From NCBI GenBank assembly GCA_036635835.1, contig JAVWPP010000002.1:4990-68989 (forward strand): a DNA stretch of 64,000 nucleotides. Direction: 5' to 3'. Below the pieces are notes generated by a model. It was given only the letters and a program-made list of their open reading frames with translations, was not told the origin of the DNA and did not search any database. This DNA comes from Clostridia bacterium. GTDB taxonomy: Bacteria > Bacillota > Clostridia > TANB77 > CAG-465. Within the stretch, counting starts at the first letter, position 1. Each line of letters begins with the position of its first letter. Both the position numbers and the translations under genes were made by a program. Below, piece by piece: positions 6,755-60,040 of this stretch.

Positions 6755-8461
6755 ATGAATAAAAAAGATGGAATGAGTTTAATAGTTCTTGTTATTACTA
6801 TTATAGTAATGATTATTTTATCAGGTGTTGTAATAATGGCACTATCTAAGAATAATCCTATTTTAAAAGCAAATGAAGCAACATTTAAATCAGATATTAA
6901 AAGTATCGAATCGATGGTTAGTTTAGATATTACTACCAAATCTACAGATAAGTATACTGATGAGTTATACACAGGAGAACTTACTGAATTTGGTATAGAA
7001 TCAAGCTCTGGAATATATAAAAAGTATGGTGGAATATTATACGTTGAGGACAATAATTTAGTAATAAGAATTGGATATACAACAAACAAAAAAAATAAGC
7101 AAATGGTTGAATGGGCAGCTGAATGTGGAATTAAAATGGCAGGAAGCTTTGCAAGTGGAGGATTTGACGGATTAATAAATACACCGGAGCTTACTCAAGG
7201 ATTAATACCTGTTAAGTATAATGACAATAAAAAAGCTTGGGTTATTGCTGATCCAACTAATTCATTAGATTTCATGTTTTGGCATGATTATCCTAATGCG
7301 CAGTGGGCAAATGCAGTCACTTTAAAACCTAATTCACAGCTTAGAAAGAAACTTTTGAATCCTAATAACAATATGCTTAAAGCTTCTAGTATAGGAGATT
7401 TTGTAAATGAATCAATCAATATGGACGAAGTAAATTCATTTTGGGTATGGATACCTAGCTTTAAACTAGGAGATGTAACGCCTGCTAATGAAAAATCAGG
7501 TTCGGATATAACTTTTTGCAGAGGAAAAGAAGATAAAAAGAAAGTACATAAAGCTTTTCTATTTGGAGATAAAGTTCTAAATGGAATTTGGGTTTCTAAA
7601 TTTAGCATGAGTAAAAATTCAGATAATATAGAAGTTAAACCAGACGTGGACGCTTTAAATTTTTTGCTTCCTGTACCTGCTCATAGATTAATAAGAGGTA
7701 TGGAAAACATAACAAAAGCACAGTATTATGGATGGGCTAATGAAGACGGATATAATGATGTAACTGGAGATTATGCTACTAGCCATAACAAATTAGATGT
7801 GCATATGATAAAAAATTCAGAATGGGCAGCAACTGCATATTTATCTAACAGTATATATGGAAAGCTAGGAAATAATGAATATGCATTAGCAGAAAAAGAA
7901 GTGTATATTAATAATTCATTTGCAGATAATAACAAAAAATCATATACCGGTAGAAGCGGTGGAGCGCCGGGTGGAGCAGTAAAATTAAAGCCAGGTCAAA
8001 CAAAAGAAAATTCACCATATGGGTATTACACTTATGACGGAAAGAATGTAAAGCAAGATACCGGTGAAATATTAGATTATGCAATAAATAAAAACTCGGG
8101 ATATGGAGCCTCTACAACAGGAAATATATATGGAGCTTTTGATATGTCTGGAGGATATGAGACTATAGTTGCAGCAATATGTATAGAGAAAGATAATCCT
8201 AATAAAGAACAATTAACATATGCAAATTCAAAATATTTAGAAGTATATGGTGTAAACGAATACAAAAAGGGTGATGCAACGCTTGAAGCGAAAAACTTCT
8301 ATGGTGATATGGCTTATATGATAGCAAATGACTATAGAAATATGGCAAGAGGTATTAAGGCGTTTATGGGTAGACCTGCAGGAATTTTTGGATATACAAG
8401 GGTATATGAGTGGGATAGCGGAATAAATACATCGAGGCCAGTTATAGTTGCGGATGTATAA
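6755..8461 (+). CDS. secreted/membrane-anchored protein with possible FGE-sulfatase-like (SUMF1-type) domain
   Basis: N-terminal hydrophobic anchor, AEWEYAA-like NSEWAATAY, DMSGNVWEW-like FDMSGGYET and a C-terminal RVYEWDSG. The domain call is by eye only. Confidence 0.6.
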   Translation: MNKKDGMSLIVLVITIIVMIILSGVVIMALSKNNPILKANEATFKSDIKSIESMVSLDITTKSTDKYTDELYTGELTEFGIESSSGIYKKYGGILYVEDNNLVIRIGYTTNKKNKQMVEWAAECGIKMAGSFASGGFDGLINTPELTQGLIPVKYNDNKKAWVIADPTNSLDFMFWHDYPNAQWANAVTLKPNSQLRKKLLNPNNNMLKASSIGDFVNESINMDEVNSFWVWIPSFKLGDVTPANEKSGSDITFCRGKEDKKKVHKAFLFGDKVLNGIWVSKFSMSKNSDNIEVKPDVDALNFLLPVPAHRLIRGMENITKAQYYGWANEDGYNDVTGDYATSHNKLDVHMIKNSEWAATAYLSNSIYGKLGNNEYALAEKEVYINNSFADNNKKSYTGRSGGAPGGAVKLKPGQTKENSPYGYYTYDGKNVKQDTGEILDYAINKNSGYGASTTGNIYGAFDMSGGYETIVAAICIEKDNPNKEQLTYANSKYLEVYGVNEYKKGDATLEAKNFYGDMAYMIANDYRNMARGIKAFMGRPAGIFGYTRVYEWDSGINTSRPVIVADV

Positions 8462-11425: not shown

Positions 11426-12193
11426 ATGATAGAATTTAAAAACGTAACAAAACAATATGATCATGGTGTTACCGCACTAGATAGCATTAATATAAAAATA
11501 GAAAAAGGTGAGTTCGTATTTTTTGTAGGGCCATCAGGTTCTGGAAAATCTACTTTGCTAAAATTAATAATAAAAGAAGAAGACCCAACTCGAGGAACAG
11601 TTATAGTCAACGCAAACGATCTAACAAATATGAAAGACAAAAACATACCATTTTTAAGAAGAAATATAGGATTTGTGTTTCAAGATTTTAGATTAATATA
11701 TGATAGAACAGTATATGAAAATATAGCATTTGCACTTCATGTAATTGAAGCAAAAGAAAGTGATATAACAAAAAAAGTAAGAGAAGTTTTAGAATTAGTA
11801 GGACTTAGTACAAAAGCTTATGCATTTCCAAATCAGCTTTCAGGTGGAGAGCAGCAAAGAGTTTCATTAGCAAGAGCAATTGTAACAAACCCACCTATTG
11901 TAATAGCAGATGAACCTACAGGAAATCTTGATTCGGATACGGCTGTGGATATCATGAATAGATTATATGATTTAAACAGCAAAGGCACAACAGTTATTGT
12001 TGTAAGCCATGATAGAGATATGATTACAAAGTCTGGAATGAGAGTTATACAAATGAATAAAGGCAAAGTAATAGCAGATGAAAAAATGACAAGAAGTGTA
12101 ACTGAAAATGTAAATGTGAATATAAAAACAGAAGCTAACAATCAAGACAAACCTTATAGCAGTCGTAGAATGAACATGGGAGGTGGTTTTTAA
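11426..12193 (+). CDS. ftsE: cell-division ABC transporter ATP-binding protein FtsE
   Basis: Walker A GPSGSGKST, signature LSGGEQQR, Walker B IVIADE. Confidence 0.85.
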   Translation: MIEFKNVTKQYDHGVTALDSINIKIEKGEFVFFVGPSGSGKSTLLKLIIKEEDPTRGTVIVNANDLTNMKDKNIPFLRRNIGFVFQDFRLIYDRTVYENIAFALHVIEAKESDITKKVREVLELVGLSTKAYAFPNQLSGGEQQRVSLARAIVTNPPIVIADEPTGNLDSDTAVDIMNRLYDLNSKGTTVIVVSHDRDMITKSGMRVIQMNKGKVIADEKMTRSVTENVNVNIKTEANNQDKPYSSRRMNMGGGF

Positions 12194-13089
12194 TGAGTAG
12201 TGCAAAATATTTATTTACAGAAGGTGTAACAAACATTAAAAAACATGGTTCAAAATCTGTATCAACACTATTTGTAATAGGTGCAACAATGCTTATACTT
12301 GGGCTATTTATCTTAATGTATTCTAATGTAAATTATTTAATGAATACTATAGAGAATGAACAAGGATTACAAGCATTTATAAAAGATGATCTAACATCTA
12401 ACAATAGAATAGATACAATTAAAAATCAAATAGAAAAAATAAAAGGTGTTTTAAATGTCGAATACATGGACAAAGAAGCAGCTTTTCAAGACGCAAAAAA
12501 TATGTTTAAAGGGCAAGAATATTTATTAGACGGCCTATTAGATAAATCAAATATATTTCCAGCTTCATTTATAGTAAAAATCGGAGATTTAACACAATCT
12601 AAAAATATAGAAAAAGCATTAAGTGAAATAGATGGAATATATAAAGTTAGATATAGCGAAACAACTATACAGTCAATTATGTCTATTTCACAAGTAACAA
12701 ATATAGTATTAGTAGGCTTAGGAAGTGTTATGCTTATTGTTTCAATATTTATAATTTCAAATACAATTAAACTTGCATTAAACTCAAATCAAAGAGAAAT
12801 ATTTATAATGAGATACATAGGAGCAACTAATAAATTTATAAGAACTCCATTTGTTATAGAAGGTGTATTCTTAGGGCTTTTAGGAGCATTTACATCATGG
12901 GTTATAGTATCGCTTATATATATAACTTTATATGCAAAATTACCGCAAGTATCATCTGCTATAGGAACATATGGATTAATACCATACTCTAAATTATGGT
13001 ATTCAGTATTAGGAATTAACCTATTATTAGGATTCTTAGTGGGATACATAGGAAGTAAAGTTTCAATTAAAAAATATTTAAAAGCGTAG
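12193..13089 (+). CDS. ftsX: cell-division ABC permease-like protein FtsX
   Basis: Start overlaps the ftsE stop. One TM, an extracellular domain, then three C-terminal TMs. FtsX topology. Confidence 0.8.
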   Translation: MSSAKYLFTEGVTNIKKHGSKSVSTLFVIGATMLILGLFILMYSNVNYLMNTIENEQGLQAFIKDDLTSNNRIDTIKNQIEKIKGVLNVEYMDKEAAFQDAKNMFKGQEYLLDGLLDKSNIFPASFIVKIGDLTQSKNIEKALSEIDGIYKVRYSETTIQSIMSISQVTNIVLVGLGSVMLIVSIFIISNTIKLALNSNQREIFIMRYIGATNKFIRTPFVIEGVFLGLLGAFTSWVIVSLIYITLYAKLPQVSSAIGTYGLIPYSKLWYSVLGINLLLGFLVGYIGSKVSIKKYLKA

Positions 13090-13118: not shown

Positions 13119-14297
13119 ATGAAAAAAGTATTTAAAAATGTGATTTTGTTAGTGGTTATATTAATTACTTTTAACTTAAATAATGTTTTTGCAAAAAGCG
13201 TAACAGATTATCAAAAAGACATAGAAGCATATCAAAAAAATATAGATAATGTAAAAAAACAATTGGAAAACAATCAGAATAAGCTTGGAGGAATTGAAAG
13301 AGAAGTTAATTCATTAAGAATTGAATTATTAGATTTAAATTCTCAAATAGAAGTACAAAATACAAGTTTAGAAAAATTAGTAGCTGAATCAGATTCTGTA
13401 AAAAGTAGTATGGAAGCTAACCAAAAATTAATTAGCAACGCTACTGACAAACAAGAAGGTGCAGAAGATTTGCTTCAAATAAGGCTTAGAGCAATTTATG
13501 AAAATGGTGCAACAGATCCGTGGGAACTATTATTTTCTTCTTCAAGTATAATGCAGTATTTTGAAAAGAAAAAAGTAATTGCTGCAATAACTGAGCATGA
13601 TAAGAATTTAATAGATTCTGTTTCAAATCAAAAAGAGTATTTAAATGGAATACAAAAAGAAATAGAGCTTCAAAAAATTAAACTAGATCAAATAACTTTT
13701 GATAAAGAAAAAACAGCAGAAGCTTTAAAAACATCTAAAAACGTAATGGAATCAAGAACAGTACAACTAAATTCAAACAAGCAGATGATTAATTCATTAA
13801 ACGCTACATTACAAAAAGAAGAACAAGCTTTAAGTGAAAAACTAGCTGCTGAAATAATAAAACTACAACAAGAGTCAGGCAATATAGTAAGTGAAAAAGG
13901 TTTTGTATGGCCTTTTCCAACATGGAGAAGTGTATTCTGTGGATTTAATGGATATCCAGGACATACAGGTATAGATATTTCACCTAGCAAATCGCTACAA
14001 AATAAATCTATAGTTGCTGCAAAATCAGGTAAAGTTATCAGAGCAGTATCAGGAAAAGGCAATACATATCCTTGGAGTTATGATTATGGAAATTATATAA
14101 TAATAGATCATGGTAACGGCGAAAGTACTCTATATGGCCATTTATCCTCTCTTAATGTATCAAGTGGACAATTTGTTGTACAAGGACAAAAAATAGGTGT
14201 ATGTGGAAATACTGGCTATTCAACAGGCTTACATCTACATTTCGAAGTGAGAATAGGTGGAAGACCTAAAAACCCATTAAATTATGTTAAATACTAA
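13119..14297 (+). CDS. coiled-coil M23 metallopeptidase (EnvC/PcsB-like)
   Basis: Signal peptide, long coiled coil, M23 motifs HTGIDI and GLHLHFEV. Confidence 0.8.
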   Translation: MKKVFKNVILLVVILITFNLNNVFAKSVTDYQKDIEAYQKNIDNVKKQLENNQNKLGGIEREVNSLRIELLDLNSQIEVQNTSLEKLVAESDSVKSSMEANQKLISNATDKQEGAEDLLQIRLRAIYENGATDPWELLFSSSSIMQYFEKKKVIAAITEHDKNLIDSVSNQKEYLNGIQKEIELQKIKLDQITFDKEKTAEALKTSKNVMESRTVQLNSNKQMINSLNATLQKEEQALSEKLAAEIIKLQQESGNIVSEKGFVWPFPTWRSVFCGFNGYPGHTGIDISPSKSLQNKSIVAAKSGKVIRAVSGKGNTYPWSYDYGNYIIIDHGNGESTLYGHLSSLNVSSGQFVVQGQKIGVCGNTGYSTGLHLHFEVRIGGRPKNPLNYVKY

Positions 14298-14367: not shown

Positions 14368-15579
14368 ATGAAATTAAAAAATAAAATGAAAACAAGTATG
14401 TTAACTATAATTCTAATTATTTTTTCTTCTACCGTAGTGCTTGCAAACCAACAGCCTAAAAGCTTTGAAGCTGAATTAGAAAAAGTAAAGACTAAACTTG
14501 AAAAAAACAATTCAAAACTAGAGGGCGTAGACAGAGAAATAAATGCATTGCTAATACAAATTTGTGATTTAGATGTGCAAATAGCTAAAATAGATTCTCA
14601 AAATGAAAAAATAGATGTTAAAGCAGAGGAAACTAAAAAAGAGATCGTAGTAAATAATGAAAAAATAACTAAGCTAGACGAAATAGTAAAAACAGACACA
14701 TTATATTATGAGCAAAGATTAAGGAGTATTTACGAAAACGGTGCTGTTAATTTTCTAGATATAATGTTTACTTCTAAGAATTTTGTAGATTATATAAAAA
14801 AATATAACATATTAGTAGCAATTATAGAAGAGGACAAAAGAACCTATGTTAATATAAATACTAAACAAGAGCAAGTAGAAAAAGCTAAAAAAAATATTGA
14901 AATTAAGAATTTGCAATTAGATCAATTAAAAGAAGAAAAACAAGCTACAACAAATGAACTAGTAAAGCAAAGAGATATAAGAAAAAGATATATTGATGAT
15001 TTAGAAGCAAATAAAGAAAAGCTAGCAATTCAAAATAAATTATTAGTTAAACAAGAAGATGAATTGAATGCTGAAATAACAAACGAATTATTAAAACTTC
15101 TTGCAGAAGTAAGGCGTAATGACCCAACAATAATAGCAGGAACTCCTAATGCTGCTGGCTTTACGTGGCCAGTTCCAGCAGGCGGCGTTGTAACTGCAGG
15201 TTTTCCAACATATCCTGCAACATTTGGTGGTGGAAAACATGATGGCTTGGATATTGCACCAACAGCAACTATGTCTAGAGCTGTTGTTGCATGTAAAGGC
15301 GGAAAAGTAATAAAAGCTGTTACAGATAGACCACAAAATACATATCCGTATTCAATGCAATATGGTAATCACATTGTACTGTTACACGAAGATGGTGTTA
15401 CAACGTCTCTATATGGGCATTTAGCATCTGCAAATGTACAATTAGGAGATACAGTAACAGTAGGACAGCAAATAGGTGTAATAGGAAGTAGCGGATATTC
15501 TACAGGTGCGCATTTACATTTCGAAATAAGAATAAATGGAATAGCGCAAAATCCTTTATCATATATTACAAAGCCTTAA
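14368..15579 (+). CDS. coiled-coil M23 metallopeptidase, paralogue of the preceding gene
   Basis: Same architecture. M23 motifs KHDGLDIA and GAHLHFEI. Confidence 0.8.
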   Translation: MKLKNKMKTSMLTIILIIFSSTVVLANQQPKSFEAELEKVKTKLEKNNSKLEGVDREINALLIQICDLDVQIAKIDSQNEKIDVKAEETKKEIVVNNEKITKLDEIVKTDTLYYEQRLRSIYENGAVNFLDIMFTSKNFVDYIKKYNILVAIIEEDKRTYVNINTKQEQVEKAKKNIEIKNLQLDQLKEEKQATTNELVKQRDIRKRYIDDLEANKEKLAIQNKLLVKQEDELNAEITNELLKLLAEVRRNDPTIIAGTPNAAGFTWPVPAGGVVTAGFPTYPATFGGGKHDGLDIAPTATMSRAVVACKGGKVIKAVTDRPQNTYPYSMQYGNHIVLLHEDGVTTSLYGHLASANVQLGDTVTVGQQIGVIGSSGYSTGAHLHFEIRINGIAQNPLSYITKP

Positions 15580-15661
15580 AATAAAGAAATATAAAGAGTT
15601 TATGTATTAGTACATAAACTTTTTTTGTCGAAATTTGAATAACGGTTTTTTCTTTTTTTCA

Positions 15662-15690
15662 TTGACTTTGAATAATCACGGTGTTAGAAT
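15662..15690 (+). promoter_or_regulatory. sigma-A-type promoter candidate for the pilus-like operon
   Basis: TTGACT, 17-nt spacer, TAGAAT, about 25 nt upstream of the RBS aaggagg. Confidence 0.45.
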
Positions 15691-15714
15691 AGTGCAAGCA
15701 AAGGAGGAAAGACA

Positions 15715-16503
15715 ATGATAATGATAGTAGTTTTAATATTGTCTATAAGTTTAATCAGTTTATACAATACCCTAAGTATAAAAAAACAATTTTATAGCGA
15801 TCAAAAAACCAATAAATTTTACAAATCTAAATTTTTAAAAAAATTAAATGTCGGTTTAGGCCTGTGTAGCATAACGAAAAAAATAAGTTTAAAGACGTAT
15901 GTTACATTCAAAGTATTTTTATCAATAATATTTTCACTAATATTTTATATTAATTCACAAAGTTTAGCACAAACATTTTGTTACTGGGCATTAATATTTT
16001 TCATAATTGATATATATCTAATAGTTCGTGTAAAAGATGAAAATAATAATATTGTTAATACTATATATAATATAAGTGAAATTTTTTATCAGCTTTTAGA
16101 AGCAGAAGTTCCATATAAAGATGTCTTGGAAATTGTTATAGATGTTATAGATAACAAAAAGTTTAAATATGAGTTCACAGAATTTGTATTTAAATATAAA
16201 AGACAAGGATATAATTTAGAACTTGCTTCAAAATCAATTTTATCAATTTACGATAGTGATGAATTAAACCGTTTTATCGAAACTTTAAAATGTAGTTTTA
16301 CAGAAGAAACTCTAAAAGAAAATCTCAAAGATTTTTTATCACAATTGGCATACCGAAAAATGAACTATTTTAAGTCTATGATAGCTAAGAAAAGAGTTAC
16401 TGTAATGATTTCTATTCTTATGATTTTAGTAAGTATAATGAGCATTATAACTTATCCAATAATAATAGAACTAACTAATAGTATCAGTACTATCTTTTGC
16501 TAG
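15715..16503 (+). CDS. TadB/TadC (GspF/T2SSF-domain)-like inner-membrane platform protein
   Basis: TM helices at both ends flank a roughly 120-aa helical cytoplasmic segment (ISEIFYQLLEAEVPYKDVLEIV...LSQLAY). Confidence 0.45.
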   Translation: MIMIVVLILSISLISLYNTLSIKKQFYSDQKTNKFYKSKFLKKLNVGLGLCSITKKISLKTYVTFKVFLSIIFSLIFYINSQSLAQTFCYWALIFFIIDIYLIVRVKDENNNIVNTIYNISEIFYQLLEAEVPYKDVLEIVIDVIDNKKFKYEFTEFVFKYKRQGYNLELASKSILSIYDSDELNRFIETLKCSFTEETLKENLKDFLSQLAYRKMNYFKSMIAKKRVTVMISILMILVSIMSIITYPIIIELTNSISTIFC

Positions 16504-16516
16504 AAAGGAGCACCAA

Positions 16517-16735
16517 ATGAATAATAAAAAAGTAAGCAAAAATGAAAACAAAAAATTAAAAAAGAGAGGATCTGAAGTGATACAGTTTGTTTTACTAACT
16601 GTTATTTCATCAATTGTTATCATAGCAATTGTATATCCTACATTTAGAAATCTAACAGCTGCTACAAGTGGAAAATTAGAAATGTGGTTTAACGAGACAA
16701 TTGAAACAATAATGCCCAATGCTTTAGAATGTTAA
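16517..16735 (+). CDS. Flp/Fap-family pilin-like protein
   Basis: 72 aa. Basic leader ending KKRG, then SEVIQFVLLTVISSIVIIAIV, compared with the Flp motif G/xTAIEYGLI. Confidence 0.4.
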   Translation: MNNKKVSKNENKKLKKRGSEVIQFVLLTVISSIVIIAIVYPTFRNLTAATSGKLEMWFNETIETIMPNALEC

Positions 16736-16739
16736 TTAA

Positions 16740-17402
16740 ATGAGAAAGGATAAGAAAATAATTATAATTTGTGTTTTATCTATAATTTTGTATATATTTA
16801 TTACCTATATAATAGGCTTGGTATCAGTAAATAAAAGTCAATTTGCAGAGATATATATGTTAAAAAATGATGTTATTAGAGGCCAAAAAATAAATGAATC
16901 AAGCATAAATAAAATTAGTGTATACAAAAAAGATATAAAAGTAATACCTAATATGGACTATACAGTTTCTAATAAAGTATCAAAAGAAAATCTTAAAAAA
17001 GGACAAATTTTAGATAAAAATATGTTTATTGAAGAGAAAGATTATTTAAAAAGCTCTAGTAACAAGGAGTTAATATCTATATCAATTAAAGAAGCTAGTG
17101 ATGTTTCAGGATATTTAATTAAGAAAGATAGCATTGTTAATATGTATGTTACAGCTAAAAGTAAATATGTAGAGGATATTGTAAATTCAAAAAAAATACT
17201 CAAAACTGAATCGGGTTTTTCAACTATTGAACTACTTAAAGATATCAAAATCATAAAGGTTATTGATAAAAACGGAGTTGAAGTTACTAGCGGTGATAAT
17301 AAAATTTATGATGAAGTTATTATAGAAGTTAATAAAGAAGATGCTATTTTATTAAATAATTTAAAAAGTTATAGTGAATTTTCTTTTACATTAGTGAGAT
17401 AA
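16740..17402 (+). CDS. CpaB/RcpC-like pilus assembly protein (SAF plus beta-clip pattern)
   Basis: N-terminal TM, SAF-like KENLKKGQILDKNMF, ISISIKEASDVSGYLIKKDSIVNMYVT and a terminal SFTLVR, matching the CpaB pattern. Confidence 0.55.
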   Translation: MRKDKKIIIICVLSIILYIFITYIIGLVSVNKSQFAEIYMLKNDVIRGQKINESSINKISVYKKDIKVIPNMDYTVSNKVSKENLKKGQILDKNMFIEEKDYLKSSSNKELISISIKEASDVSGYLIKKDSIVNMYVTAKSKYVEDIVNSKKILKTESGFSTIELLKDIKIIKVIDKNGVEVTSGDNKIYDEVIIEVNKEDAILLNNLKSYSEFSFTLVR

Positions 17403-17833
17403 TGAAAGTATGTTATTTAAGAAAAAAAGATGATATAGAATATGATCCAATAATTCTATCATTAAATATGTATATTAAAAATAAATTAATCGAAAAAATA
17501 GATGAACAATATTATTGTAAAGATGAAGTGAAAATAAAAGATCCGGTGGATGTATATATAATTTTTTCGGATAACTTCAGAACATTTTGCGAATTATACA
17601 ATCAAATTGAAGATAAAAGCAAAATAATGTTGTTTACAAATAATGCAGATGCTTCATTTATTATAATGTGTTTAAAATTCATAAAAAGTGTTGCATATCT
17701 AAGAATAAAGCCTATGTTTTGTGAAGCTTCTAATGAATACGAAAAATACAATCTAATAAATACAAAAAGATTAACTAAAAGTATATTAGGTTTTATAAAA
17801 AGTATAGAATATGAAGAAACACTTAAGGAATAA
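17402..17833 (+). CDS. stand-alone CheY-like receiver-domain protein
   Basis: KVCYLRKKDD (acidic pair after beta1), DVYIIFSDN (Asp at end of beta3), KIMLFTNN (Thr), AYLRIKP (Lys-Pro). Confidence 0.4.
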   Translation: MKVCYLRKKDDIEYDPIILSLNMYIKNKLIEKIDEQYYCKDEVKIKDPVDVYIIFSDNFRTFCELYNQIEDKSKIMLFTNNADASFIIMCLKFIKSVAYLRIKPMFCEASNEYEKYNLINTKRLTKSILGFIKSIEYEETLKE

Positions 17834-18347
17834 AATTATTATTGCTGCTGTAATAATAGGAGTAATAATAATAATCTTATTAGTTATGTTATCAAGAAAT
17901 AGTGTAAAATATGATAACAATCAAACTTCATATTTTGACATAAATACTTTGATAACAAATAGATATATAAAGGCTGAAAACAATTATGACTTAGTTATAA
18001 TAGGTAGTAATAAAAATGAAGTTGAAAATGGTTATTATGATGTAAAAATAATTAAAAATAAAGATAATTTAAAAATATATATAAATAAATTATGGAAAGA
18101 TAATATCAATTATACGTCCTTTGTTGATGAAGAATATATAGATCAAATATTTACCTTCATTGAAAAGGTCTATAAAAAACCAAATATCGCAGATTTTAAA
18201 ACAAAAACAATTATTAAAGAGACCTATACTGCGTATCAAAATAATAAAAAAGAAAATAAAATAAATGAAAATATGCAAAGTATTAAAAAAATCAAAAATA
18301 TCAAAATGGATTGTGAGGATGGTAAATTTCTAATAGAAATTACCTAA
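17811..18347 (+). CDS. membrane-anchored hypothetical protein
   Basis: N-terminal TM IIIAAVIIGVIIIILLVML. Overlaps the upstream gene by 23 nt. Confidence 0.5.
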   Translation: MKKHLRNKIIIAAVIIGVIIIILLVMLSRNSVKYDNNQTSYFDINTLITNRYIKAENNYDLVIIGSNKNEVENGYYDVKIIKNKDNLKIYINKLWKDNINYTSFVDEEYIDQIFTFIEKVYKKPNIADFKTKTIIKETYTAYQNNKKENKINENMQSIKKIKNIKMDCEDGKFLIEIT

Positions 18348-18352
18348 AAAAA

Positions 18353-19903
18353 ATGAGAATTATAGTTATATTAATAAGTTTATTTTTTACTAGTCACATA
18401 AGCGCAATGAGTTATGAGTTCGAGAAAATGATTAATATTGTAGGGATACCAAGGTATAACGTTCTAGGTCATGAATTAAATGAAGAATTGTATATTACAT
18501 ATAATCAATTTATCTATGCAAGTCCTACTCAAATTACAGGTAGACAAAGATGGAAAAATGTTAATGAAGGAAGATGGACAGAAGGCGGAGGTATGTGGCG
18601 AGGTTCAGGAAATAGAGGAGAGTATTATGCTATTGGAACAGATTATTCAGGAGTTGTAGTTCATAACTTTTATTTTCCTGTAGATCGTACACCTAAAATA
18701 CCACCACATGAATGGAATTATTGCAATTTTAACGGCGCGCTTAATTCATGGAATGATACGAGTAGATATAAATTTGCAGATCAATTAAGTCATATGAAAA
18801 ATACCAATATAATTTATGACAGAATTGATTACAATAATAATCATTGCAACCCATATGACTTGGTAGAATACCCAATAAACGCATTACAAATCAATTTAAA
18901 TAGATGTCAATTAGAATTAGCAGCAACATGGAATACAAATGGTGTTATTTTAATAAGAAGGTACATCGATGGAATATGGTGGGAAACCGTATTTCTAGTA
19001 AAACCAATGGCTGCAGATGTAAAACTAAATAGTGAAGTTAAATTTGATAAAAAACCGTTAACTTTAGATGAAAATACTAAAGAACTCTTTTTAGACGTTG
19101 AATTTGGCGCGAATGTTACTAACTATTCTGGTTATGCAAAAAAAGAGCATATAAAAGAGATTAAATCAGAGTTATATTTAGAAAATGAAAAACAAGATGA
19201 ATTATCAATTATTAAGAATGATAATGGCAGAAAAAAAGCAAGAATAAAAATAGATAGAAGTAAATTAGAAGTTGGAAAAGTAAATAGAGTTAAAATCAAG
19301 TCAAGTTCATACATGATTACTGAATTTTCAGCAGACGGTATGTACAAAGATGAAAATACTCAATATTTAGAGATAGATGTTAAGAAACTAAGGCCCCCAA
19401 ATCCCTTAGAAGATAAAGAAGTCAAAAGGCTTTATATAAATGGCGAAAATGAGTATTGCGTTTCAAATATTTTAAAACATGAAGATGTTCCTATTTTTCA
19501 AGGAGGACAATATATAGTTAATAAAATCACTTTTAGAGATAAAATACAAACTATAAAAGCAAACGATGACAGCAAGTTTTATAAAATTAATGAGAAACAA
19601 TATATAAATGTTAAAAAAATCCCTATAGATACAGACAGTACATTAGCTTCATATGAAGATTTGAGAAATGAATCTGGCAACTATTTTAGAATTAATACTG
19701 CCGAGATATTAAAACCCTTAAAAGACCCTTATACAGTTAAATTTGAGTATAAATATGAAGATTTTGATTATAACTGTTGTTATCAATTTAATGTAATAGG
19801 CAATATACTGAACAATTTCAATTATAATTTCACTTCAAAAAACCCTGAAAAATACAATAAGGAGAGTATATATAATTGGTTAAACATAAAAAAAGCGGAA
19901 TGA
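18353..19903 (+). CDS. secreted hypothetical protein (516 aa)
   Basis: Signal peptide MRIIVILISLFFTSHISA. No known motifs. Confidence 0.55.
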   Translation: MRIIVILISLFFTSHISAMSYEFEKMINIVGIPRYNVLGHELNEELYITYNQFIYASPTQITGRQRWKNVNEGRWTEGGGMWRGSGNRGEYYAIGTDYSGVVVHNFYFPVDRTPKIPPHEWNYCNFNGALNSWNDTSRYKFADQLSHMKNTNIIYDRIDYNNNHCNPYDLVEYPINALQINLNRCQLELAATWNTNGVILIRRYIDGIWWETVFLVKPMAADVKLNSEVKFDKKPLTLDENTKELFLDVEFGANVTNYSGYAKKEHIKEIKSELYLENEKQDELSIIKNDNGRKKARIKIDRSKLEVGKVNRVKIKSSSYMITEFSADGMYKDENTQYLEIDVKKLRPPNPLEDKEVKRLYINGENEYCVSNILKHEDVPIFQGGQYIVNKITFRDKIQTIKANDDSKFYKINEKQYINVKKIPIDTDSTLASYEDLRNESGNYFRINTAEILKPLKDPYTVKFEYKYEDFDYNCCYQFNVIGNILNNFNYNFTSKNPEKYNKESIYNWLNIKKAE

Positions 19904-20328
19904 TTTATTTATTAGCTATCGCAATTATTATAGCTTTATTCATGTTATTTTCATTATATATAATTGTTTTACAAAATTCAATAATAATTTCAAGCGTCAA
20001 AAATACAGTCTATTATTTAGCACAAAATTCTATATTAGATTTTGATAAAGATAATTTAGGATTAGATAAATATGAAATTGATTTGATGGCGACAAGAAAA
20101 CGAATAGAAAATTTATTAAAACTAGAAGAAAAAAATTTCAAAAGGTTCGGAATTAAAAATGTAAGTATAGGCAATATTGAACTAGTAAAAAGCAAAAAAG
20201 ATAAAGAAATAAATCAAATGATAATAGAAATGAATTTTGATGTCGAACCTATTATAATGAAGCAAAAAATAAAGACGAAAAAAATAAAAATGAAAGAATA
20301 TATAAAAATGAACTTGATGGAGATATAA
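19876..20328 (+). CDS. TadE-like pseudopilin candidate
   Basis: TTG start 8 nt after AAGGAGAG. KKSG followed by the hydrophobic helix MIYLLAIAIIIALFMLF. Confidence 0.35.
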   Translation: MVKHKKSGMIYLLAIAIIIALFMLFSLYIIVLQNSIIISSVKNTVYYLAQNSILDFDKDNLGLDKYEIDLMATRKRIENLLKLEEKNFKRFGIKNVSIGNIELVKSKKDKEINQMIIEMNFDVEPIIMKQKIKTKKIKMKEYIKMNLMEI

Positions 20329-20329
20329 G

Positions 20330-20734
20330 ATGAAAAAAGGAAGCGCAGCAATAACAGTACCAATAACAACAGCTATCTGCATGATAATGATAGCAATATT
20401 ATTTATAAATATAATCAATTATATTATCCCCTTTATATGGTATGAGAAATTACAAATAATATGCCAAAAGTACACATACGTAATAGAGCAATTTGGGTAT
20501 CTTAAAGTAGGTGAAATAGATGATCTAAAAACTGAATTAAAAAGAAAAGGGTTCAAATTAGAAAATATAACATTTAAGATTCCAGAAGAAGAAAAAGAAT
20601 ACGGTAGTTTGTTTGAATTTTCTGTTAAATATATGTATGAACATAAAACAATTGGCTTTGGTAATGGTGGTGTTGTAAGTAAAAAAAATAACATACCCAT
20701 AGTAATTGAAAAATATGGGTACGTTAAAAAATAA
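20330..20734 (+). CDS. TadE-like pseudopilin
   Basis: MKKGSAAITVPITTAICMIMIAILF resembles the TadE N-terminal motif GSAAVEFALV. Confidence 0.45.
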   Translation: MKKGSAAITVPITTAICMIMIAILFINIINYIIPFIWYEKLQIICQKYTYVIEQFGYLKVGEIDDLKTELKRKGFKLENITFKIPEEEKEYGSLFEFSVKYMYEHKTIGFGNGGVVSKKNNIPIVIEKYGYVKK

Positions 20735-27712: not shown

Positions 27713-28399
27713 ATGAATATAAATAAAAAAAATATAAGTATAATTGTAGCAGTAGTTGTTGTTATAATTATTGCAGTATTAGGATTTAATATAACTAAGG
27801 ATATTGTAACAAATAGCAATAAAAAAACATCTACAGAGTTAACAAAAAAGCTTGAAACATTAAATAAAAAATATCCAGAAGCAAAAGCCTGGTTAAAAGT
27901 AAATAATACAACTATAAATATGCCTGTATTTCAATCTAACGATAATAATAAATATTTAAGATTAAATAGAGATGGAAAAGAAGCTAAATGGGGCGAAGCT
28001 TATTTAGATTACAGAGTAGATTTAAAAAAAATAAACGATAAAAGTAATATTATAATATATGGACATAATACTGAACAAGACACGTTGTTTACGCCATTAT
28101 TAAAATATAAAGACGAAGAATTTTTCAAAAAAAATAAAACAATTCAATTAGCAATTAAAGATAAGGAATATAAATTTGAAATTATATCTGCTTTTGTTAC
28201 AGATACTAGTTATTTTTATATAGATACTGAGTTTAAAAACGTAGAAGAATATGATAATTTTACAAATGAAATAAAAAGTAAAAGCATATACGATACAGGA
28301 GTTAAATTAAAGAGTAACGATACAATATTAACGTTATCTACTTGTGAGTACTCTATAGAAAATGGTAGATTCGTAGTGGTAGCTAGATTAGTTAAATAA
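27713..28399 (+). CDS. srtB: class B sortase
   Basis: N-terminal TM anchor, His motif IIIYGHN, Cys motif TLSTCEY, Arg in RFVVVARL. Confidence 0.75.
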   Translation: MNINKKNISIIVAVVVVIIIAVLGFNITKDIVTNSNKKTSTELTKKLETLNKKYPEAKAWLKVNNTTINMPVFQSNDNNKYLRLNRDGKEAKWGEAYLDYRVDLKKINDKSNIIIYGHNTEQDTLFTPLLKYKDEEFFKKNKTIQLAIKDKEYKFEIISAFVTDTSYFYIDTEFKNVEEYDNFTNEIKSKSIYDTGVKLKSNDTILTLSTCEYSIENGRFVVVARLVK

Positions 28400-28405
28400 A
28401 GAAAA

Positions 28406-28435
28406 GAGCAGTAAATAAAAATTACTGCTCTTTTT
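28406..28435. terminator. bidirectional terminator between srtB and the SASP gene
   Basis: gagcagtaa/ttactgctc hairpin flanked by T-runs on both strands. Confidence 0.55.
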
Positions 28436-28516
28436 AGTTATACTACTTGAATTATATACTATTAATTAAATATAAACATAAATAATAGTAAGACAAAATA
28501 ATTCATAAAATAGAAA

Positions 28517-28720
28517 CTAGTTTTTTCCTGACATTTGGTTTTCAGCTTGCATTATTAATTTCTTAACCATTGCACCACCGATAGAACCAGCTTGTTTAGA
28601 AGTTAAGTCACCGTTGTATCCTTGTTTTAAGTTAACACCGATTTCGTTAGCAACTTCATATTTGAATTTGTTTAAAGCTTCTTTAGCTTCTGGAACTGCT
28701 TTTTGATTTGAACTTGGCAT
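28517..28720 (-). CDS. ssp: alpha/beta-type small acid-soluble spore protein
   Basis: SASP signature segments KYEVANEIGVNL and GSIGGAMVKKLI. RBS aaaggagg. A loose sigma-G-like promoter element lies upstream. Confidence 0.85.
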   Translation of the reverse strand: MPSSNQKAVPEAKEALNKFKYEVANEIGVNLKQGYNGDLTSKQAGSIGGAMVKKLIMQAENQMSGKN

Positions 28721-28919
28721 AATTTGTTCACCTCCTTTTTAACATTAAGTAAAAACTAAATCTTTACTTAGTCATAATTTGTGCAGTAAAAATGAAATAA
28801 TACATTTTAAATCGTTTTTTTCGAAAAAAATTGTGACAGAAAAATTTTTAATATGTCAAACTCATTGCATTTTTATGTAAAGTGTGATAAAATATAAGGG
28901 TAGATTACGGAGGTTAAAT

Positions 28920-30098
28920 ATGAAAAAAATAATATCAATTAGTTTAATAATAATGATATTAGCAATAAATACACAAGTATTTGCAGCATCAATACCTATA
29001 GTTAATATAGGTGGACCCAATAGAGCTGAAGTACAAGTAGGTGGATCAGTAAGTTATACTGTTGCATTTTACGGTGCTAATTCAATTAATTTAAAAAGTT
29101 CAGATATAGGAATCGCGGGTTCTGGTGTAACAGCAGCAAAGACGGTTTCAGGATCTGGTAATACAAGGACAGTTACACTTAGTAATATACAAGGTGAAAT
29201 AGGTAAAGTTGTAAGTATAGCTATTAGATCAGGAGTAGCAACTAACGCATCTGGAAGTTCAGTGCAAACACCTAATTCTATTGGCTTTGTAATAAAACAA
29301 GGTCAATATGATAATGTAAAGCCTTCTATTACAGTAACAGGCCCTTCTAAAAATAATGTAGATTTAGGAGCTTCAGTTGTATATAACGTAAATTATTCAG
29401 ATAAAAGTGGTATAAAGAATATTTCTTTAAATAGTTCAAGTATAGCTTTATTTGGATTTACAGCAAATGTGTCAATTAGCGGAACTGGAACTTCAAGAAG
29501 AATAACATTAAATAACGTTCAAGGCGCAGAAGGTGGCAATAAATATATAAGTATTAAAAGCGGAACAGCAGCGGATATGGTTGGAAATTTAGCTTATGGT
29601 GTAGAAAGAACAACAAAATTTTGTATAAATGCAAAACCAGTTGAAACACCTAGTAATCAAGAAATAAAACCAGTAGAGAATAAGCAAACAGACGTAAACA
29701 AGCCAACTATTAATATTTCTGCACCAAGTGCAACTTCAATTTTAGCAGGTGAAACAATAAGATATGTACTTACATACAATGATGATCAAGGATTACAAAA
29801 TATATCGTTAAAAATTGATGATGTAAAATTAATAGGGTTTACAGCGGATATAACAATAGAAAATGATGAAAATAAAAGAGTGATTATATTATCAAATGTA
29901 CAAGGAGACTTAGAAACTGAAAAATACATATCAATCAATTCGGAAACTGCAGTAGACCTTAAAGGTAACAAAGCAGAAGCTGTAAATAAAACTATTCCAT
30001 TTAAAATAGAAAAAAAAGCAGAAATAAATGATAAAAAATATAATGATGGTAGACCAAATGATTGGATAGAAAATCCAAACACGGGAAAAAACATATAA
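28920..30098 (+). CDS. secreted surface protein with three tandem repeats of about 95 aa, C-terminal NPNTG
   Basis: Signal peptide MKKIISISLIIMILAINTQVFA. Repeats share GFTA[ND].SI.G.G..R.I.L.N[IV]QG. The protein ends ...ENPNTGKNI followed by a stop. Confidence 0.7.
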   Translation: MKKIISISLIIMILAINTQVFAASIPIVNIGGPNRAEVQVGGSVSYTVAFYGANSINLKSSDIGIAGSGVTAAKTVSGSGNTRTVTLSNIQGEIGKVVSIAIRSGVATNASGSSVQTPNSIGFVIKQGQYDNVKPSITVTGPSKNNVDLGASVVYNVNYSDKSGIKNISLNSSSIALFGFTANVSISGTGTSRRITLNNVQGAEGGNKYISIKSGTAADMVGNLAYGVERTTKFCINAKPVETPSNQEIKPVENKQTDVNKPTINISAPSATSILAGETIRYVLTYNDDQGLQNISLKIDDVKLIGFTADITIENDENKRVIILSNVQGDLETEKYISINSETAVDLKGNKAEAVNKTIPFKIEKKAEINDKKYNDGRPNDWIENPNTGKNI

Positions 30099-30104
30099 AA
30101 AAAG

Positions 30105-30133
30105 CACGTAATATAAAAGTTACGTGTTTTTTT
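30105..30133. terminator. bidirectional terminator
   Basis: cacgtaa/ttacgtg hairpin then T7. There is also a T-run on the other strand. Confidence 0.55.
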
Positions 30134-30147
30134 ATTCCTAACTGAAT

Positions 30148-30369
30148 TTATCCTTTAGGAGGAGTTGGATCATTTCCATAACTATCTTTGTCACGGAATT
30201 TTCCGTTTGCTGCATGTATAAAGACTTCAGATTTTTGGTTTATTGCGATCCTTCTTGCTATAACAATAGCTTCTTGTTGTGTATCTACATTTCTTGTAGC
30301 TTTAGAATTTCCTTCACCTCTAACTGACCAACCTCCGTTATTACGTTTTACAACATGTTGATTTGGCAT
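30148..30369 (-). CDS. DUF2188-family small protein
   Basis: MPNQHVVKRNNGGWSVRGEGNSKATRNVDTQQEAI...KDSYGNDPTPPKG. Start chosen at the MPNQ ATG after agaggtga. Confidence 0.6.
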   Translation of the reverse strand: MPNQHVVKRNNGGWSVRGEGNSKATRNVDTQQEAIVIARRIAINQKSEVFIHAANGKFRDKDSYGNDPTPPKG

Positions 30370-30713
30370 GAATATCACCTCTTTTTCTAAAATTATTATA
30401 TCAAGAAAAATTAACATGTACAATACATTATTGATAAAAAATGCAAATAGTTCAATCTTGTATACTTTTCATCATATTTACATCTTAAAGTGTTATCTAA
30501 TATAAAAAATCTCCCTATAAATATATAGAAGTAACTTATACTTTTTTCAATAAAAATAATAATACACTTACACATCTACTGTACAAAGTTCGAAATATTT
30601 AGCATATTAGCAGAATTCTTTCAGAAAATAGTGTAAAAAACTACGATTTTTTGTTGATGTATTATGTTAACTGTGATATAATATACACTATTAAAAGTAT
30701 CAAGGAGGTATAT

Positions 30714-32648: not shown

Positions 32649-32806
32649 CGAAAAATAGAGGAAACTCTATTTTTTTTTGTTAAATCATGGTCATAAACGC
32701 AAAGTATATTGAATTTTTATGTAATCTGTGGTATAATGAATGTATAGTTTAATATTTCTATAAACCTTTAAATAAAGATTTAATAAAATAATAGGAGATG
32801 ATAAGT

Positions 32807-57666: not shown

Positions 57667-57901
57667 AAATTCCTCCTATGTATATAGATATATAGTATCT
57701 TAAAATGCATACTTTAGCAAGCATAATTATTTTTAGGAAACTAAAATGCATATAAAAGAAAGACTTAGAAAATATATTAATGAAAATACATAAGTTTTAT
57801 TGAATAATCTTTATTTTTAGCTATTGATATTTATAATATAATGTAGTATGATATATAAGTAATAGTAAACATTTTAAGTAATGTTAACAAGGAGTGATTT
57901 T

Positions 57902-58231
57902 ATGGGATTTAAAAAAACAATAACAATATCTATGGTAGTTGCATTTATAGCATTTTGCTTATCTGGAATTGTATTTGCAGAAGGACTGCCTAAAACAGAC
58001 GATGTAGTATATGATAGCGTGCTTGTAGCACTTGATTACATACAAAAGTATTCATGGCCAATAGCTTTTCTATTTTTTATATTTGCTTTATATAAATTTT
58101 ATATTTTAGGTGCTGAAACTTTAGCACATAGAATAGTAGGGCAAAGAATGGTAATAGGAACAGCGCTGTTTTTAGCACTTGCACAATGGATGCCATTAAT
58201 ATATGCATTTATAATTTTGGCAGATAAATAA
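57902..58231 (+). CDS. small secreted 2-TM protein, pilin-like (VirB2/TrbC-like topology)
   Basis: Signal peptide MGFKKTITISMVVAFIAFCLSGIVFA followed by two hydrophobic helices. ATG follows aaggag. Confidence 0.45.
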   Translation: MGFKKTITISMVVAFIAFCLSGIVFAEGLPKTDDVVYDSVLVALDYIQKYSWPIAFLFFIFALYKFYILGAETLAHRIVGQRMVIGTALFLALAQWMPLIYAFIILADK

Positions 58232-58261
58232 AAAAAGTAGTACCTAAGGAAGGTGAAAAAT

Positions 58262-60025: not shown

Positions 60026-60040
60026 TAAAAGGAGATAAAA

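What the first reader, a model, noticed from the sequence alone, without database searches (positions are those of the whole stretch)
15662..20734. Atypical Tad/Flp-like pilus gene module lacking its secretion ATPase
Eight co-oriented, tightly packed or overlapping genes sit behind a single strong promoter. They encode a GspF/TadB-like platform protein, a 72-aa Flp-like pilin, a CpaB/RcpC-like protein, a CheY-like receiver, two unknown envelope proteins and two TadE-like pseudopilins. No CpaF/TadA-type ATPase and no prepilin peptidase is present in 64 kb. The only CpaE-like gene lies 38 kb away and carries a non-canonical P-loop. Either the ATPase is encoded elsewhere, or this is a diverged Gram-positive variant of the Tad system.
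Basis: partly seen in the sequence, partly recalled or inferred. Interest (0 to 1): 0.6.

Follow-up and report, generated by a model that had tools for sequence, protein, structure and literature searches.

The report
Tad-like pilus operon without its motor
An uncultured group of gut and environmental Clostridia keeps a conserved eight-gene operon that encodes the filament, membrane platform and collar of a Tad/Flp-type pilus, but the ATPase motor and the pilin-processing peptidase are never encoded nearby, which is unusual because Tad systems are almost always encoded at one locus.

Summary
Window 15715-20734 (+) holds eight tightly packed genes. They follow an intrinsic terminator of the upstream gene and a TTGACT-17-TAGAAT promoter.

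Single-sequence HMM hits are weak, but orthologue sets give consistent matches:
- g1: T2SSF platform.
- g2: Flp1_like pilin with a K-[KR]-G|SELAE cleavage motif, in register with Flp1 and Caulobacter PilA.
- g3: CpaB/RcpC with a SAF domain.
- g8: DUF4320.
- g7: weakly TadF-like.
- g6: a secreted protein with an Athe_2463 domain and Ig-like sandwiches.
- g4 and g5: no known family. "CheY-like" is unproven for g4.

The same eight genes, in the same order and always abutting mecA-rpsF-ssb-rpsR, occur in about 30 loci from uncultured Clostridia. Protein identity is only 25-45% and dN/dS is 0.03-0.35, so the operon is inherited vertically and is under selection.

I found no T2SSE/CpaF ATPase and no A24 peptidase in the window, in 10 kb beyond each end, or within 10 kb in any related locus. 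The distant "CpaE-like" gene is only a generic SIMIBI-type P-loop protein.

Best reading: a stripped-down Tad (type IVc) variant with one platform gene whose ATPase and peptidase are encoded elsewhere. I could not test this genome-wide. Novelty: new variant of a known kind. Interest is moderate.

The parts
15597..15627 (+). AT-rich intrinsic terminator hairpin of the upstream M23-peptidase gene. It marks the 5' boundary of the operon.
   Evidence: A 14-bp stem followed by a T-run. MFE -13.4 kcal/mol, z = -4.4 against shuffles. Sequence read.
15662..15690 (+). Sigma-A-type promoter TTGACT-17 nt-TAGAAT with an extended -10 TG.
   Evidence: It is the only candidate in the 135-nt intergenic gap. 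Consensus matches are not enriched over chance in this AT-rich DNA.
15715..16503 (+). g1: inner-membrane platform protein with a single T2SSF (GspF/TadB/TadC-type) domain. It has 4 predicted TM segments and a cytoplasmic domain at about residues 107-227.
   Evidence: The window protein matches T2SSF only weakly (E = 0.13). 11 of 14 orthologues match T2SSF, best 1.8e-5. A family profile weakly hits the GspF cytoplasmic domains 2vma/3c1q at the same region. TM segments are. dN/dS is 0.07-0.22.
16517..16735 (+). g2: Flp-type prepilin. The leader ends K-K-R-G, and the predicted mature pilin is 54 aa (SEVIQFVLL...).
   Evidence: Orthologue alignment shows an invariant Gly and the motif K[KR]G|[SA]E[LV]A[EQ]T, then a hydrophobic helix and FYP. 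9 of 14 orthologues match Pfam Flp1_like PF16982, best 1.9e-6. hhalign puts G(-1) and E(+5) in register with A. actinomycetemcomitans Flp1 (E = 1e-4) and C. crescentus PilA.
16740..17402 (+). g3: CpaB/RcpC-like protein with an N-terminal TM anchor, a SAF domain and an RcpC beta-clip domain.
   Evidence: The window protein matches RcpC at 2e-3 and SAF at 0.11. 12 of 14 orthologues match RcpC (best 5e-7), and 6 each match SAF and ChapFlgA. 11 orthologues match TIGR03177 pilus_cpaB, best 2.9e-11. A profile hits FlgA 3frn at E = 0.05.
17402..17833 (+). g4: small cytoplasmic protein with no TM segment and unknown family. It may have an alpha/beta fold. It is the least conserved member of the operon.
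   Evidence: No Pfam or NCBIfam hit. Orthologues are 12-27% identical and share one invariant Thr. hhalign against CheY gives probability 0.3. The AF2 model has pLDDT 51.5. dN/dS is 0.05-0.35.
17811..18347 (+). g5: bitopic membrane protein (one N-terminal TM segment plus an external domain of about 150 aa) of unknown family. It carries a conserved G-x-N-x-x-E-L-E-N-G-[FY]-Y-D motif.
   Evidence: No family hit.
18353..19903 (+). g6: Sec-secreted multidomain protein. It has a signal peptide, an N-terminal Athe_2463-type domain (residues 42-212) and several Ig-like beta-sandwich domains.
19876..20328 (+). g7: minor-pilin-like protein with a K-K-S-G leader, a hydrophobic helix and a small external domain. 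Weakly TadF-like.
   Evidence: The K-x-G motif is nearly invariant. Pfam TadF matches the L004 orthologue at 4.6e-3. One TM segment at 13-31.
20330..20734 (+). g8: minor-pilin-like protein of the DUF4320 family, with an M-K-K-G leader and a hydrophobic helix. It is the best conserved member of the operon. Its stop codon abuts the stop codon of the convergent mecA gene.
   Evidence: K2 and G4 are invariant. DUF4320 matches 5 orthologues. The L004 orthologue scores 25.6 bits against a cutoff of 25 over positions 4-115 of the 119-position profile.

Best explanation
The operon encodes the membrane and extracellular parts of a diverged Tad/Flp (type IVc) pilus of a Gram-positive, spore-forming, uncultured Clostridia lineage.

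Proposed mechanism:
1. The operon is transcribed from a vegetative-type promoter.
2. It makes a small Flp-type prepilin (g2) and two minor-pilin-like proteins (g7, g8). All three carry class-III leaders ending in Gly.
3. A prepilin peptidase encoded elsewhere cuts the leaders.
4. The pilins are assembled on a platform built from a single one-domain T2SSF protein (g1). This probably forms a homo-oligomer that replaces the usual TadB/TadC pair.
5. A membrane-anchored CpaB/RcpC-like protein (g3) forms the collar that guides the filament through the wall.
6. g4 (cytoplasmic), g5 (bitopic) and g6 (secreted, Ig-rich, a candidate adhesin or wall-spanning partner) are lineage-specific accessories.
7. 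Assembly is powered by a TadA/CpaF-type, or another type-IV-filament, hexameric ATPase encoded at another locus.

Shown here: gene identities at family level, the pilin motifs, conservation, selection, and the absence of an ATPase or peptidase nearby.

Inferred: the trans-acting ATPase and peptidase, g1 homo-oligomerisation, and the roles of g4 to g6.
For: Consistent orthologue-level hits to five Tad-associated families: T2SSF 11/14, Flp1_like 9/14, RcpC 12/14, DUF4320 5, TadF 2. pilus_cpaB matches 11 orthologues at 2.9e-11. One g8 orthologue passes the DUF4320 gathering cutoff.

The Flp cleavage motif G|xxxxE is conserved and aligns in register with Flp1 and PilA. K-x-G leaders are conserved in g7 and g8.

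The eight genes are collinear in about 30 loci at 25-45% identity. dN/dS is 0.03-0.35 for every gene, so the operon is functional.

The conserved leaders require a peptidase that is not in the operon. At least one essential part must therefore act in trans. Unlinked tadV is known in Bifidobacterium breve (PMC6916266) and is allowed in the Tad model of PMC6668835.

Tad systems with a single one-domain platform and no TadC have been reported in Actinobacteria (PMC6668835). A complete Tad cluster with a TadA ATPase is conserved in another uncultured low-GC Clostridia order, TANB77 (PMC11680825).
Against: No ATPase was actually found. None lies in the 64-kb window, in 10 kb beyond each end, or within 10 kb in any related locus. 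About 518 kb were scanned, and the 13 metagenome loci were scanned.

Individual HMM hits for the window proteins are below curated cutoffs. g4, g5 and most of g6 have no link to known Tad parts. TadZ and TadC were not detected.

I could not search whole genomes for the missing parts.
Confidence: 0.6

Rival explanations
1. ATPase-independent derivative. The module descends from a Tad system but no longer uses a dedicated secretion ATPase. It would form a static or otherwise-energised envelope structure, for example a short pseudopilus or wall-spanning conduit built with g3, g5 and g6.
For: The ATPase, TadZ and TadC are absent from every one of about 30 loci, while all eight genes stay under purifying selection. 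Three of the eight proteins (g4, g5, g6) are lineage-specific novelties. The operon sits at a fixed chromosomal site like a housekeeping cluster.
Against: No type-IV-filament system is known to assemble without a hexameric ATPase (established knowledge; PMC6668835, PMC6916266). The cytoplasmic T2SSF domain, which is the ATPase-facing part, is conserved. The peptidase must already act in trans, so unlinked parts are expected.
Confidence: 0.15
2. A second filament cassette that shares the motor of a complete Tad (or type IVa or Com) system in the same genome. One ATPase and one peptidase would serve two platforms.
For: A complete cluster (CpaB, TadZ, CpaE, TadA, fused TadC-TadB and seven pilin-like genes) is conserved in the uncultured Clostridia order TANB77, and that cluster has no obvious small Flp pilin (PMC11680825). 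Prepilin peptidases are exchanged between systems (PMC6668835). A further pilin-like protein lies outside the operon at 6755-8461.
Against: It is not shown that the window's organism belongs to TANB77 or carries such a cluster. None of the 70 g6 homologues carries a name from the cultured or CAG genomes typical of that order. The operon has its own platform and its own CpaB, which a mere pilin cassette would not need.
Confidence: 0.2
3. A member of an unrelated known system such as SpoIIIA (sporulation channel) or ComG (competence pseudopilus), or a decaying remnant.
For: The host is a spore former: Spo0A, SpoIID, SpoIIID, SipL, YunB, SpoIIAA/AB and SASP are present. SpoIIIAB is also a one-domain GspF-like protein (from my own knowledge of the family, not tested here). 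mecA is always adjacent, and ComEA lies 2.7 kb upstream in L036. One orthologue gives a weak ComGD hit at 1.5e-3.
Against: None of the 91 orthologue sequences scanned (g6 was not in that pooled set) gave a Spore_III_A* family or a consistent ComG family among the listed hits. The first gene is not an ATPase, as spoIIIAA and comGA are. The promoter is of vegetative sigma-A type. The pilin is Flp-type, not ComGC-type. dN/dS of 0.03-0.35 excludes decay.
Confidence: 0.04

Closest known systems
Tad/Flp (type IVc) pilus of diderms (A. actinomycetemcomitans tad locus, C. crescentus cpa locus)
   Same: A small Flp pilin with G|xxxxE. Two minor pilins. A T2SSF platform. CpaB/RcpC.
   Different: No TadA/CpaF, TadZ/CpaE, TadC, TadV, secretin, TadD or TadG in the locus. 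Only one platform gene. Three extra lineage-specific genes (g4, g5, g6). The system is not encoded at a single locus.
Monoderm Tad pili (Bifidobacterium breve Tad2003, Micrococcus luteus; PMC6916266)
   Same: A Gram-positive setting without a secretin. The prepilin peptidase is unlinked in B. breve. One pilin plus two minor pilins.
   Different: Those loci keep the ATPase, two platform paralogues and TadZ or TadG, and they lack RcpC/CpaB. This operon keeps CpaB but lacks the ATPase, the second platform and TadZ.
Conserved Tad cluster of the uncultured Clostridia order TANB77 (PMC11680825)
   Same: Uncultured, low-GC gut Clostridia. A CpaB-like gene is present. Many poorly annotated pilin-like genes. 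Proteins are nearly clade-restricted.
   Different: The TANB77 cluster has TadZ, CpaE, a 640-aa TadA and a fused TadC-TadB of 693 aa, and no 70-aa Flp. The gene lengths and order do not match this operon.
Pfam families Flp1_like (PF16982), DUF4320 (PF14208), TadF (PF16964) and RcpC (PF16976); NCBIfam Athe_2463 domain (NF047340)
   Same: g2, g8, g7, g3 and g6 respectively match these models, mostly just below cutoff.
   Different: All are uncharacterised families. Athe_2463 of Caldicellulosiruptor bescii is known only as a secreted protein induced on xylan and xylose (PMC5865380), with no shown link to pili.
Actinobacterial 'generic' Tad-like systems lacking TadC and minor pilins (PMC6668835)
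   Same: A single one-domain platform protein instead of the TadB/TadC pair.
   Different: Those systems were detected through their ATPase. Here the ATPase is the missing part.

Membership tests
Tad/Flp type IVc pilus system | Very small major pilin with the Flp motif (G|xxxxE[YT] followed by a hydrophobic helix) | tested here: met
   g2 is 72 aa, with a predicted mature form of 54 aa. Gly is invariant and E(+5) is conserved in most orthologues; it is Q in the window copy. Flp1_like matches 9/14 orthologues. hhalign aligns it in register with Flp1 and PilA.
Tad/Flp type IVc pilus system | Two paralogous one-domain platform proteins (TadB and TadC) | tested here: not met
   Only g1 matches T2SSF. 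No other polytopic protein is in the operon, and no second T2SSF protein appeared in the Pfam results for the window's larger ORFs.
Tad/Flp type IVc pilus system | TadA/CpaF (T2SSE-family) extension ATPase encoded with the system | tested here: not met
   None is in the window, in 10 kb beyond each end, or within 10 kb in about 30 related loci. The rest of the genome could not be searched.
Tad/Flp type IVc pilus system | TadZ/CpaE (atypical receiver domain plus ParA/MinD-like domain) | tested here: inconclusive
   No hit in the operon. g4 may be an alpha/beta domain, but this is unproven. The distant 587-aa P-loop protein is only SIMIBI-class.
Tad/Flp type IVc pilus system | Prepilin peptidase TadV (A24 family); it may be unlinked | tested here: not met
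   No Peptidase_A24 hit in the Pfam results available for the window's larger ORFs, and no G-G-G-D-x-K motif protein in the window or the loci. An unlinked tadV is accepted for Tad (PMC6668835, PMC6916266), so this does not exclude membership.
Tad/Flp type IVc pilus system | Minor pilins TadE/TadF with class-III leaders | tested here: met
   g7 and g8 have conserved K-x-G leaders followed by a hydrophobic helix. DUF4320 is at its cutoff for one g8 orthologue, and TadF matches weakly. The link between DUF4320 and Tad loci is from my memory only and was not tested.
Tad/Flp type IVc pilus system | CpaB/RcpC | tested here: met
   RcpC matches 12/14 orthologues. TIGR03177 matches 11, best 2.9e-11. 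SAF also matches.
Tad/Flp type IVc pilus system | All core genes in one locus | tested here: not met
   See the ATPase row. PMC6668835 states that Tad is almost exclusively single-locus.
SpoIIIA sporulation channel | spoIIIAA ATPase as first gene, plus Spore_III_AB to AH families | tested here: not met
   No Spore_III_A* family appeared for the eight window proteins or among the listed families for the 91 pooled orthologue sequences, a set that excluded g6. The promoter is of sigma-A type.
ComG competence pseudopilus | ComGA ATPase, two-domain ComGB, ComGC-type pilins (G|FTLxE) | tested here: not met
   There is only one weak ComGD hit, 1.5e-3 in one orthologue. The platform has one domain. 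The pilin motif is Flp-type.

The most novel reading that the evidence does not exclude
A type-IV-filament-derived machine that has dispensed with a dedicated ATPase. It would have one single-domain platform, an Flp pilin, two minor pilins, CpaB and three new proteins (g4, g5, g6). It would be kept as a core chromosomal operon next to mecA in a whole clade of uncultured Clostridia. It would either be energised in a new way or share one motor between two different platforms.
Probability: 0.15. Interest if true: 0.8.

Novelty: new variant of a known kind. Interest (0 to 1): 0.45.

Why it matters
Tad pili are major colonisation and adhesion organelles, and a Tad pilin from another uncultured Clostridia order was recently tied to host immune effects (PMC11680825). 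The monoderm Tad machine is considered the smallest known type IV pilus machinery (PMC6916266).

This operon is smaller still in its local gene set. It has one platform gene and no linked ATPase, TadZ or peptidase. It also adds three conserved proteins of unknown fold family.

If the ATPase is in trans, this is a rare, stably split Tad system. It would be a natural test of which parts must be co-encoded. If no ATPase exists, it would overturn the rule that type IV filaments need a hexameric motor. Either way it gives names and a context to eight 'hypothetical' families.

Tried and rejected
1. A single homology search with a concatenated profile of seven gene families (A10) returned nothing and used the last search. 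8000 candidates saturated the word filter.
2. A profile search with the g6 alignment found no relatives beyond the same 70 clusters.
g4 could therefore only be folded alone, and the model was poor. I ran no fold search on it.
4. The afdb50 fold library was unavailable.
5. Family-profile searches against PDB sequences were at or below noise for g4, g1, g6 and g3.
6. hhalign of g4 against CheY failed.
7. tblastn of a DUF4320-positive g8 orthologue against plasmids found nothing. I therefore could not document the usual genomic context of DUF4320.
8. Literature searches for DUF4320, Flp1_like and the neighbours of Athe_2463 gave nothing useful.
9. Extending the window by 10 kb at each end found only housekeeping and sporulation genes.
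10. The SpoIIIA, ComG and gene-decay readings were rejected (see rivals).
11. A functional link to ftsEX-M23 was considered and rejected, because the upstream neighbour differs between lineages.

Full report
**Observation**

The window is 27% GC DNA from an uncultured, spore-forming Clostridia MAG. NCBI holds it as 'Clostridia bacterium', for example on contig JAVWMC010000003.1 of GCA_036637655.1.

Between the second of two PcsB-like M23 peptidase genes and a convergent mecA gene lie eight co-oriented ORFs:
- g1 15715-16503
- g2 16517-16735
- g3 16740-17402
- g4 17402-17833
- g5 17811-18347
- g6 18353-19903
- g7 19876-20328
- g8 20330-20734

Spacings run from -28 to +13 nt, and g1, g2, g7 and g8 have clear ribosome-binding sites. 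The upstream gene ends in a significant AT-rich terminator hairpin at 15597-15627 (z = -4.4). A TTGACT-17-TAGAAT promoter with an extended -10 TG follows at 15662-15690. Promoter-like matches are not enriched in this DNA (47 against 51.6 expected), so the promoter is credible by position only. NCBI's protein numbering also implies exactly eight genes here.

**What the proteins are**

Taken alone, the window proteins give only sub-threshold hits: T2SSF at 0.13 for g1, and RcpC at 2e-3 and SAF at 0.11 for g3. The exception is g6, which matches the NCBIfam Athe_2463 domain at 2.6e-16.

I therefore collected orthologues. The g6 family has about 70 clusters, all from uncultured Clostridia. A genome scan gave 17 loci, and two further loci came from contig look-ups. 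All eight families are present in the same order in every complete locus.

I scanned 91 orthologues individually and obtained consistent family assignments:

| Family | Orthologues matched | Best E-value |
|---|---|---|
| RcpC | 12 of 14 | 5e-7 |
| T2SSF | 11 of 14 | 1.8e-5 |
| Flp1_like | 9 of 14 | 1.9e-6 |
| SAF | 6 | not recorded |
| ChapFlgA | 6 | not recorded |
| DUF4320 | 5 | 1.4e-5 |
| TadF | 2 | not recorded |

NCBIfam gave pilus_cpaB for 11 orthologues, best 2.9e-11. One g8 orthologue passes the DUF4320 gathering cutoff over the full profile length. A g7 orthologue and a g8 orthologue match the N-terminal part of TadF.

- **g2.** The alignment shows an invariant Gly in K-[KR]-G|[SA]-E-[LV]-A-[EQ]-T, followed by a hydrophobic helix and F-Y-P. 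hhalign places G(-1) and E(+5) in register with A. actinomycetemcomitans Flp1 (E = 1e-4, 48 columns) and C. crescentus PilA.
- **g7 and g8.** Both keep K-x-G leaders before a hydrophobic helix.
- **g1.** It has four predicted TM segments around a cytoplasmic domain that carries the T2SSF match. A family profile weakly touches the GspF cytoplasmic-domain structures at the same place.
- **g4.** It has no TM segment and no family. hhalign against CheY gives probability 0.3. A PDB profile search hits only designed Rossmann-like proteins at E = 0.02. The single-sequence AF2 model has pLDDT 51. 'CheY-like' is therefore unproven.
- **g5.** It is a bitopic protein of unknown family.

**Conservation**

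Thirteen more loci came from metagenomes. The complete ones again carry g1 to g8 in order. The junction g8|mecA(-)|rpsF-ssb-rpsR is kept in every complete locus.

The upstream neighbour differs between lineages:
- ftsE-ftsX-M23 in the window, L004 and L032.
- A divergent response-regulator HD-GYP gene and CmpB in L005, L027, L031, L036 and L039.

The ftsEX neighbourhood is therefore synteny rather than a functional link.

Orthologues are only 25-45% identical, yet dN/dS is 0.03-0.35 for all eight genes in four genome pairs. The operon is an old, vertically inherited, selected unit.

A more distant variant is seen in L028 and L037 (37% GC, a 952-aa g6-like protein, different downstream genes). 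Its upstream part is cut by the contig ends.

**The missing parts**

Pfam results for every larger ORF of the window show no T2SSE ATPase, no A24 peptidase, no second T2SSF protein and no CpaE. Motif scans of all six frames of the window and 26 loci, 518 kb in total, found only FtsE and ABC-transporter Walker motifs and no G-G-G-D-x-K peptidase motif. The 13 metagenome loci gave the same result. The 10 kb beyond each window end carry dnaX, recR and a two-component system on one side, and spo0A, spoIID and spoIIID on the other.

Its family has 438 representatives, with a conserved N-domain and a P-loop domain joined by a variable linker. Ten sampled members have no Pfam domain. A profile of the P-loop domain reaches only BY-kinases (CapB at 0.02, Wzc) and SRP54. 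It is a SIMIBI-class NTPase with a degenerate Walker A (GPPKSGTT). Nothing ties it to TadZ/CpaE or to the operon, and it is not near the operon in any other locus.

**Mechanism**

The conserved Gly-terminated leaders mean a prepilin peptidase must act in trans. Unlinked tadV is accepted for Tad (PMC6668835) and is seen in B. breve (PMC6916266).

[quoted passage not shown] This operon supplies the pilin, two minor-pilin-like proteins, one platform and, unusually for a monoderm, CpaB. It also supplies three new proteins. Single-platform Tad-like systems exist in Actinobacteria (PMC6668835).

The most economical model is a diverged, split Tad system with the ATPase encoded elsewhere. [quoted passage not shown]

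A complete but different Tad cluster is conserved in the uncultured order TANB77 (PMC11680825). I could not establish whether the present organism belongs to that order or carries that cluster.

**Verdict**

I file this as a new variant of a known kind. It works like a Tad pilus module, but it fails three membership features when judged as a locus: the ATPase, the second platform and single-locus organisation.

The open question is whether any type-IV-filament ATPase exists in these genomes. It could not be tested here and is a simple whole-genome HMM search.

Noticed in passing
window 6755-8461 (+): A 568-aa protein with a pilin-like N-terminus (KKDG|MSLIVLVITIIVMIIL) and no family hit. Homologues lie about 2.5 kb downstream of the operon in L015 (14512-15600) and L020 (14331-15389). 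It may be a further large pilin-like or adhesin substrate of the same peptidase.
   Followed up: partly
window 57881-61114 (+): A three-gene group. The first gene encodes a 116-aa membrane protein. The second encodes a 587-aa protein with a conserved N-domain and a degenerate P-loop (GPPKSGTT). The third encodes a GGDEF protein. The P-loop family has 438 representatives with very variable linkers (550-1400 aa) and no Pfam domain. Its nearest structures are BY-kinases and SRP54 at E about 0.02. An HD plus EAL protein lies just upstream at 54435-56171.
   Followed up: partly
window 20734/20735: The stop codon of g8 directly abuts the stop codon of the convergent mecA gene, with no spacer and no terminator. 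This junction, followed by rpsF-ssb-rpsR, is kept in every complete related locus.
   Followed up: partly
L005 3850-6818; L036 2138-5188; L027, L031 and L039 upstream of g1: In one sub-lineage the operon is preceded by a divergent response-regulator HD-GYP (c-di-GMP phosphodiesterase-type) gene. In L005 a 575-aa weak-GGDEF protein is also present. In L036 ComEA lies 2.7 kb upstream. In the window's genome the HD-GYP gene lies about 25 kb upstream of the operon instead. This hints at c-di-GMP control or a link to competence, but it may be plain synteny.
   Followed up: partly
L028 386-4255; L037 30-2735: A divergent variant from 37% GC metagenome contigs. It has a g6-like protein of 952 aa with a PKD-like stretch, followed by g7- and g8-like genes. 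The downstream genes differ (2-hydroxyacid dehydrogenase, NAD synthase, HflX). The upstream part is lost at the contig ends.
   Followed up: partly
L004 4861-7203: In one related MAG, FtsX is fused to a PcsB-like coiled-coil and M23 peptidase in a single 780-aa protein. In the window these are separate genes (ftsX 12193-13089; M23 genes 13119-14297 and 14368-15579).
   Followed up: no
window 27713-35620 (+): A sortase gene followed by three large repeat-rich surface proteins (404, 665 and 940 aa). Only the 665-aa protein gave domain hits (Big_12 and DUF11). This is a separate surface-protein cluster and is not part of the operon.
   Followed up: no
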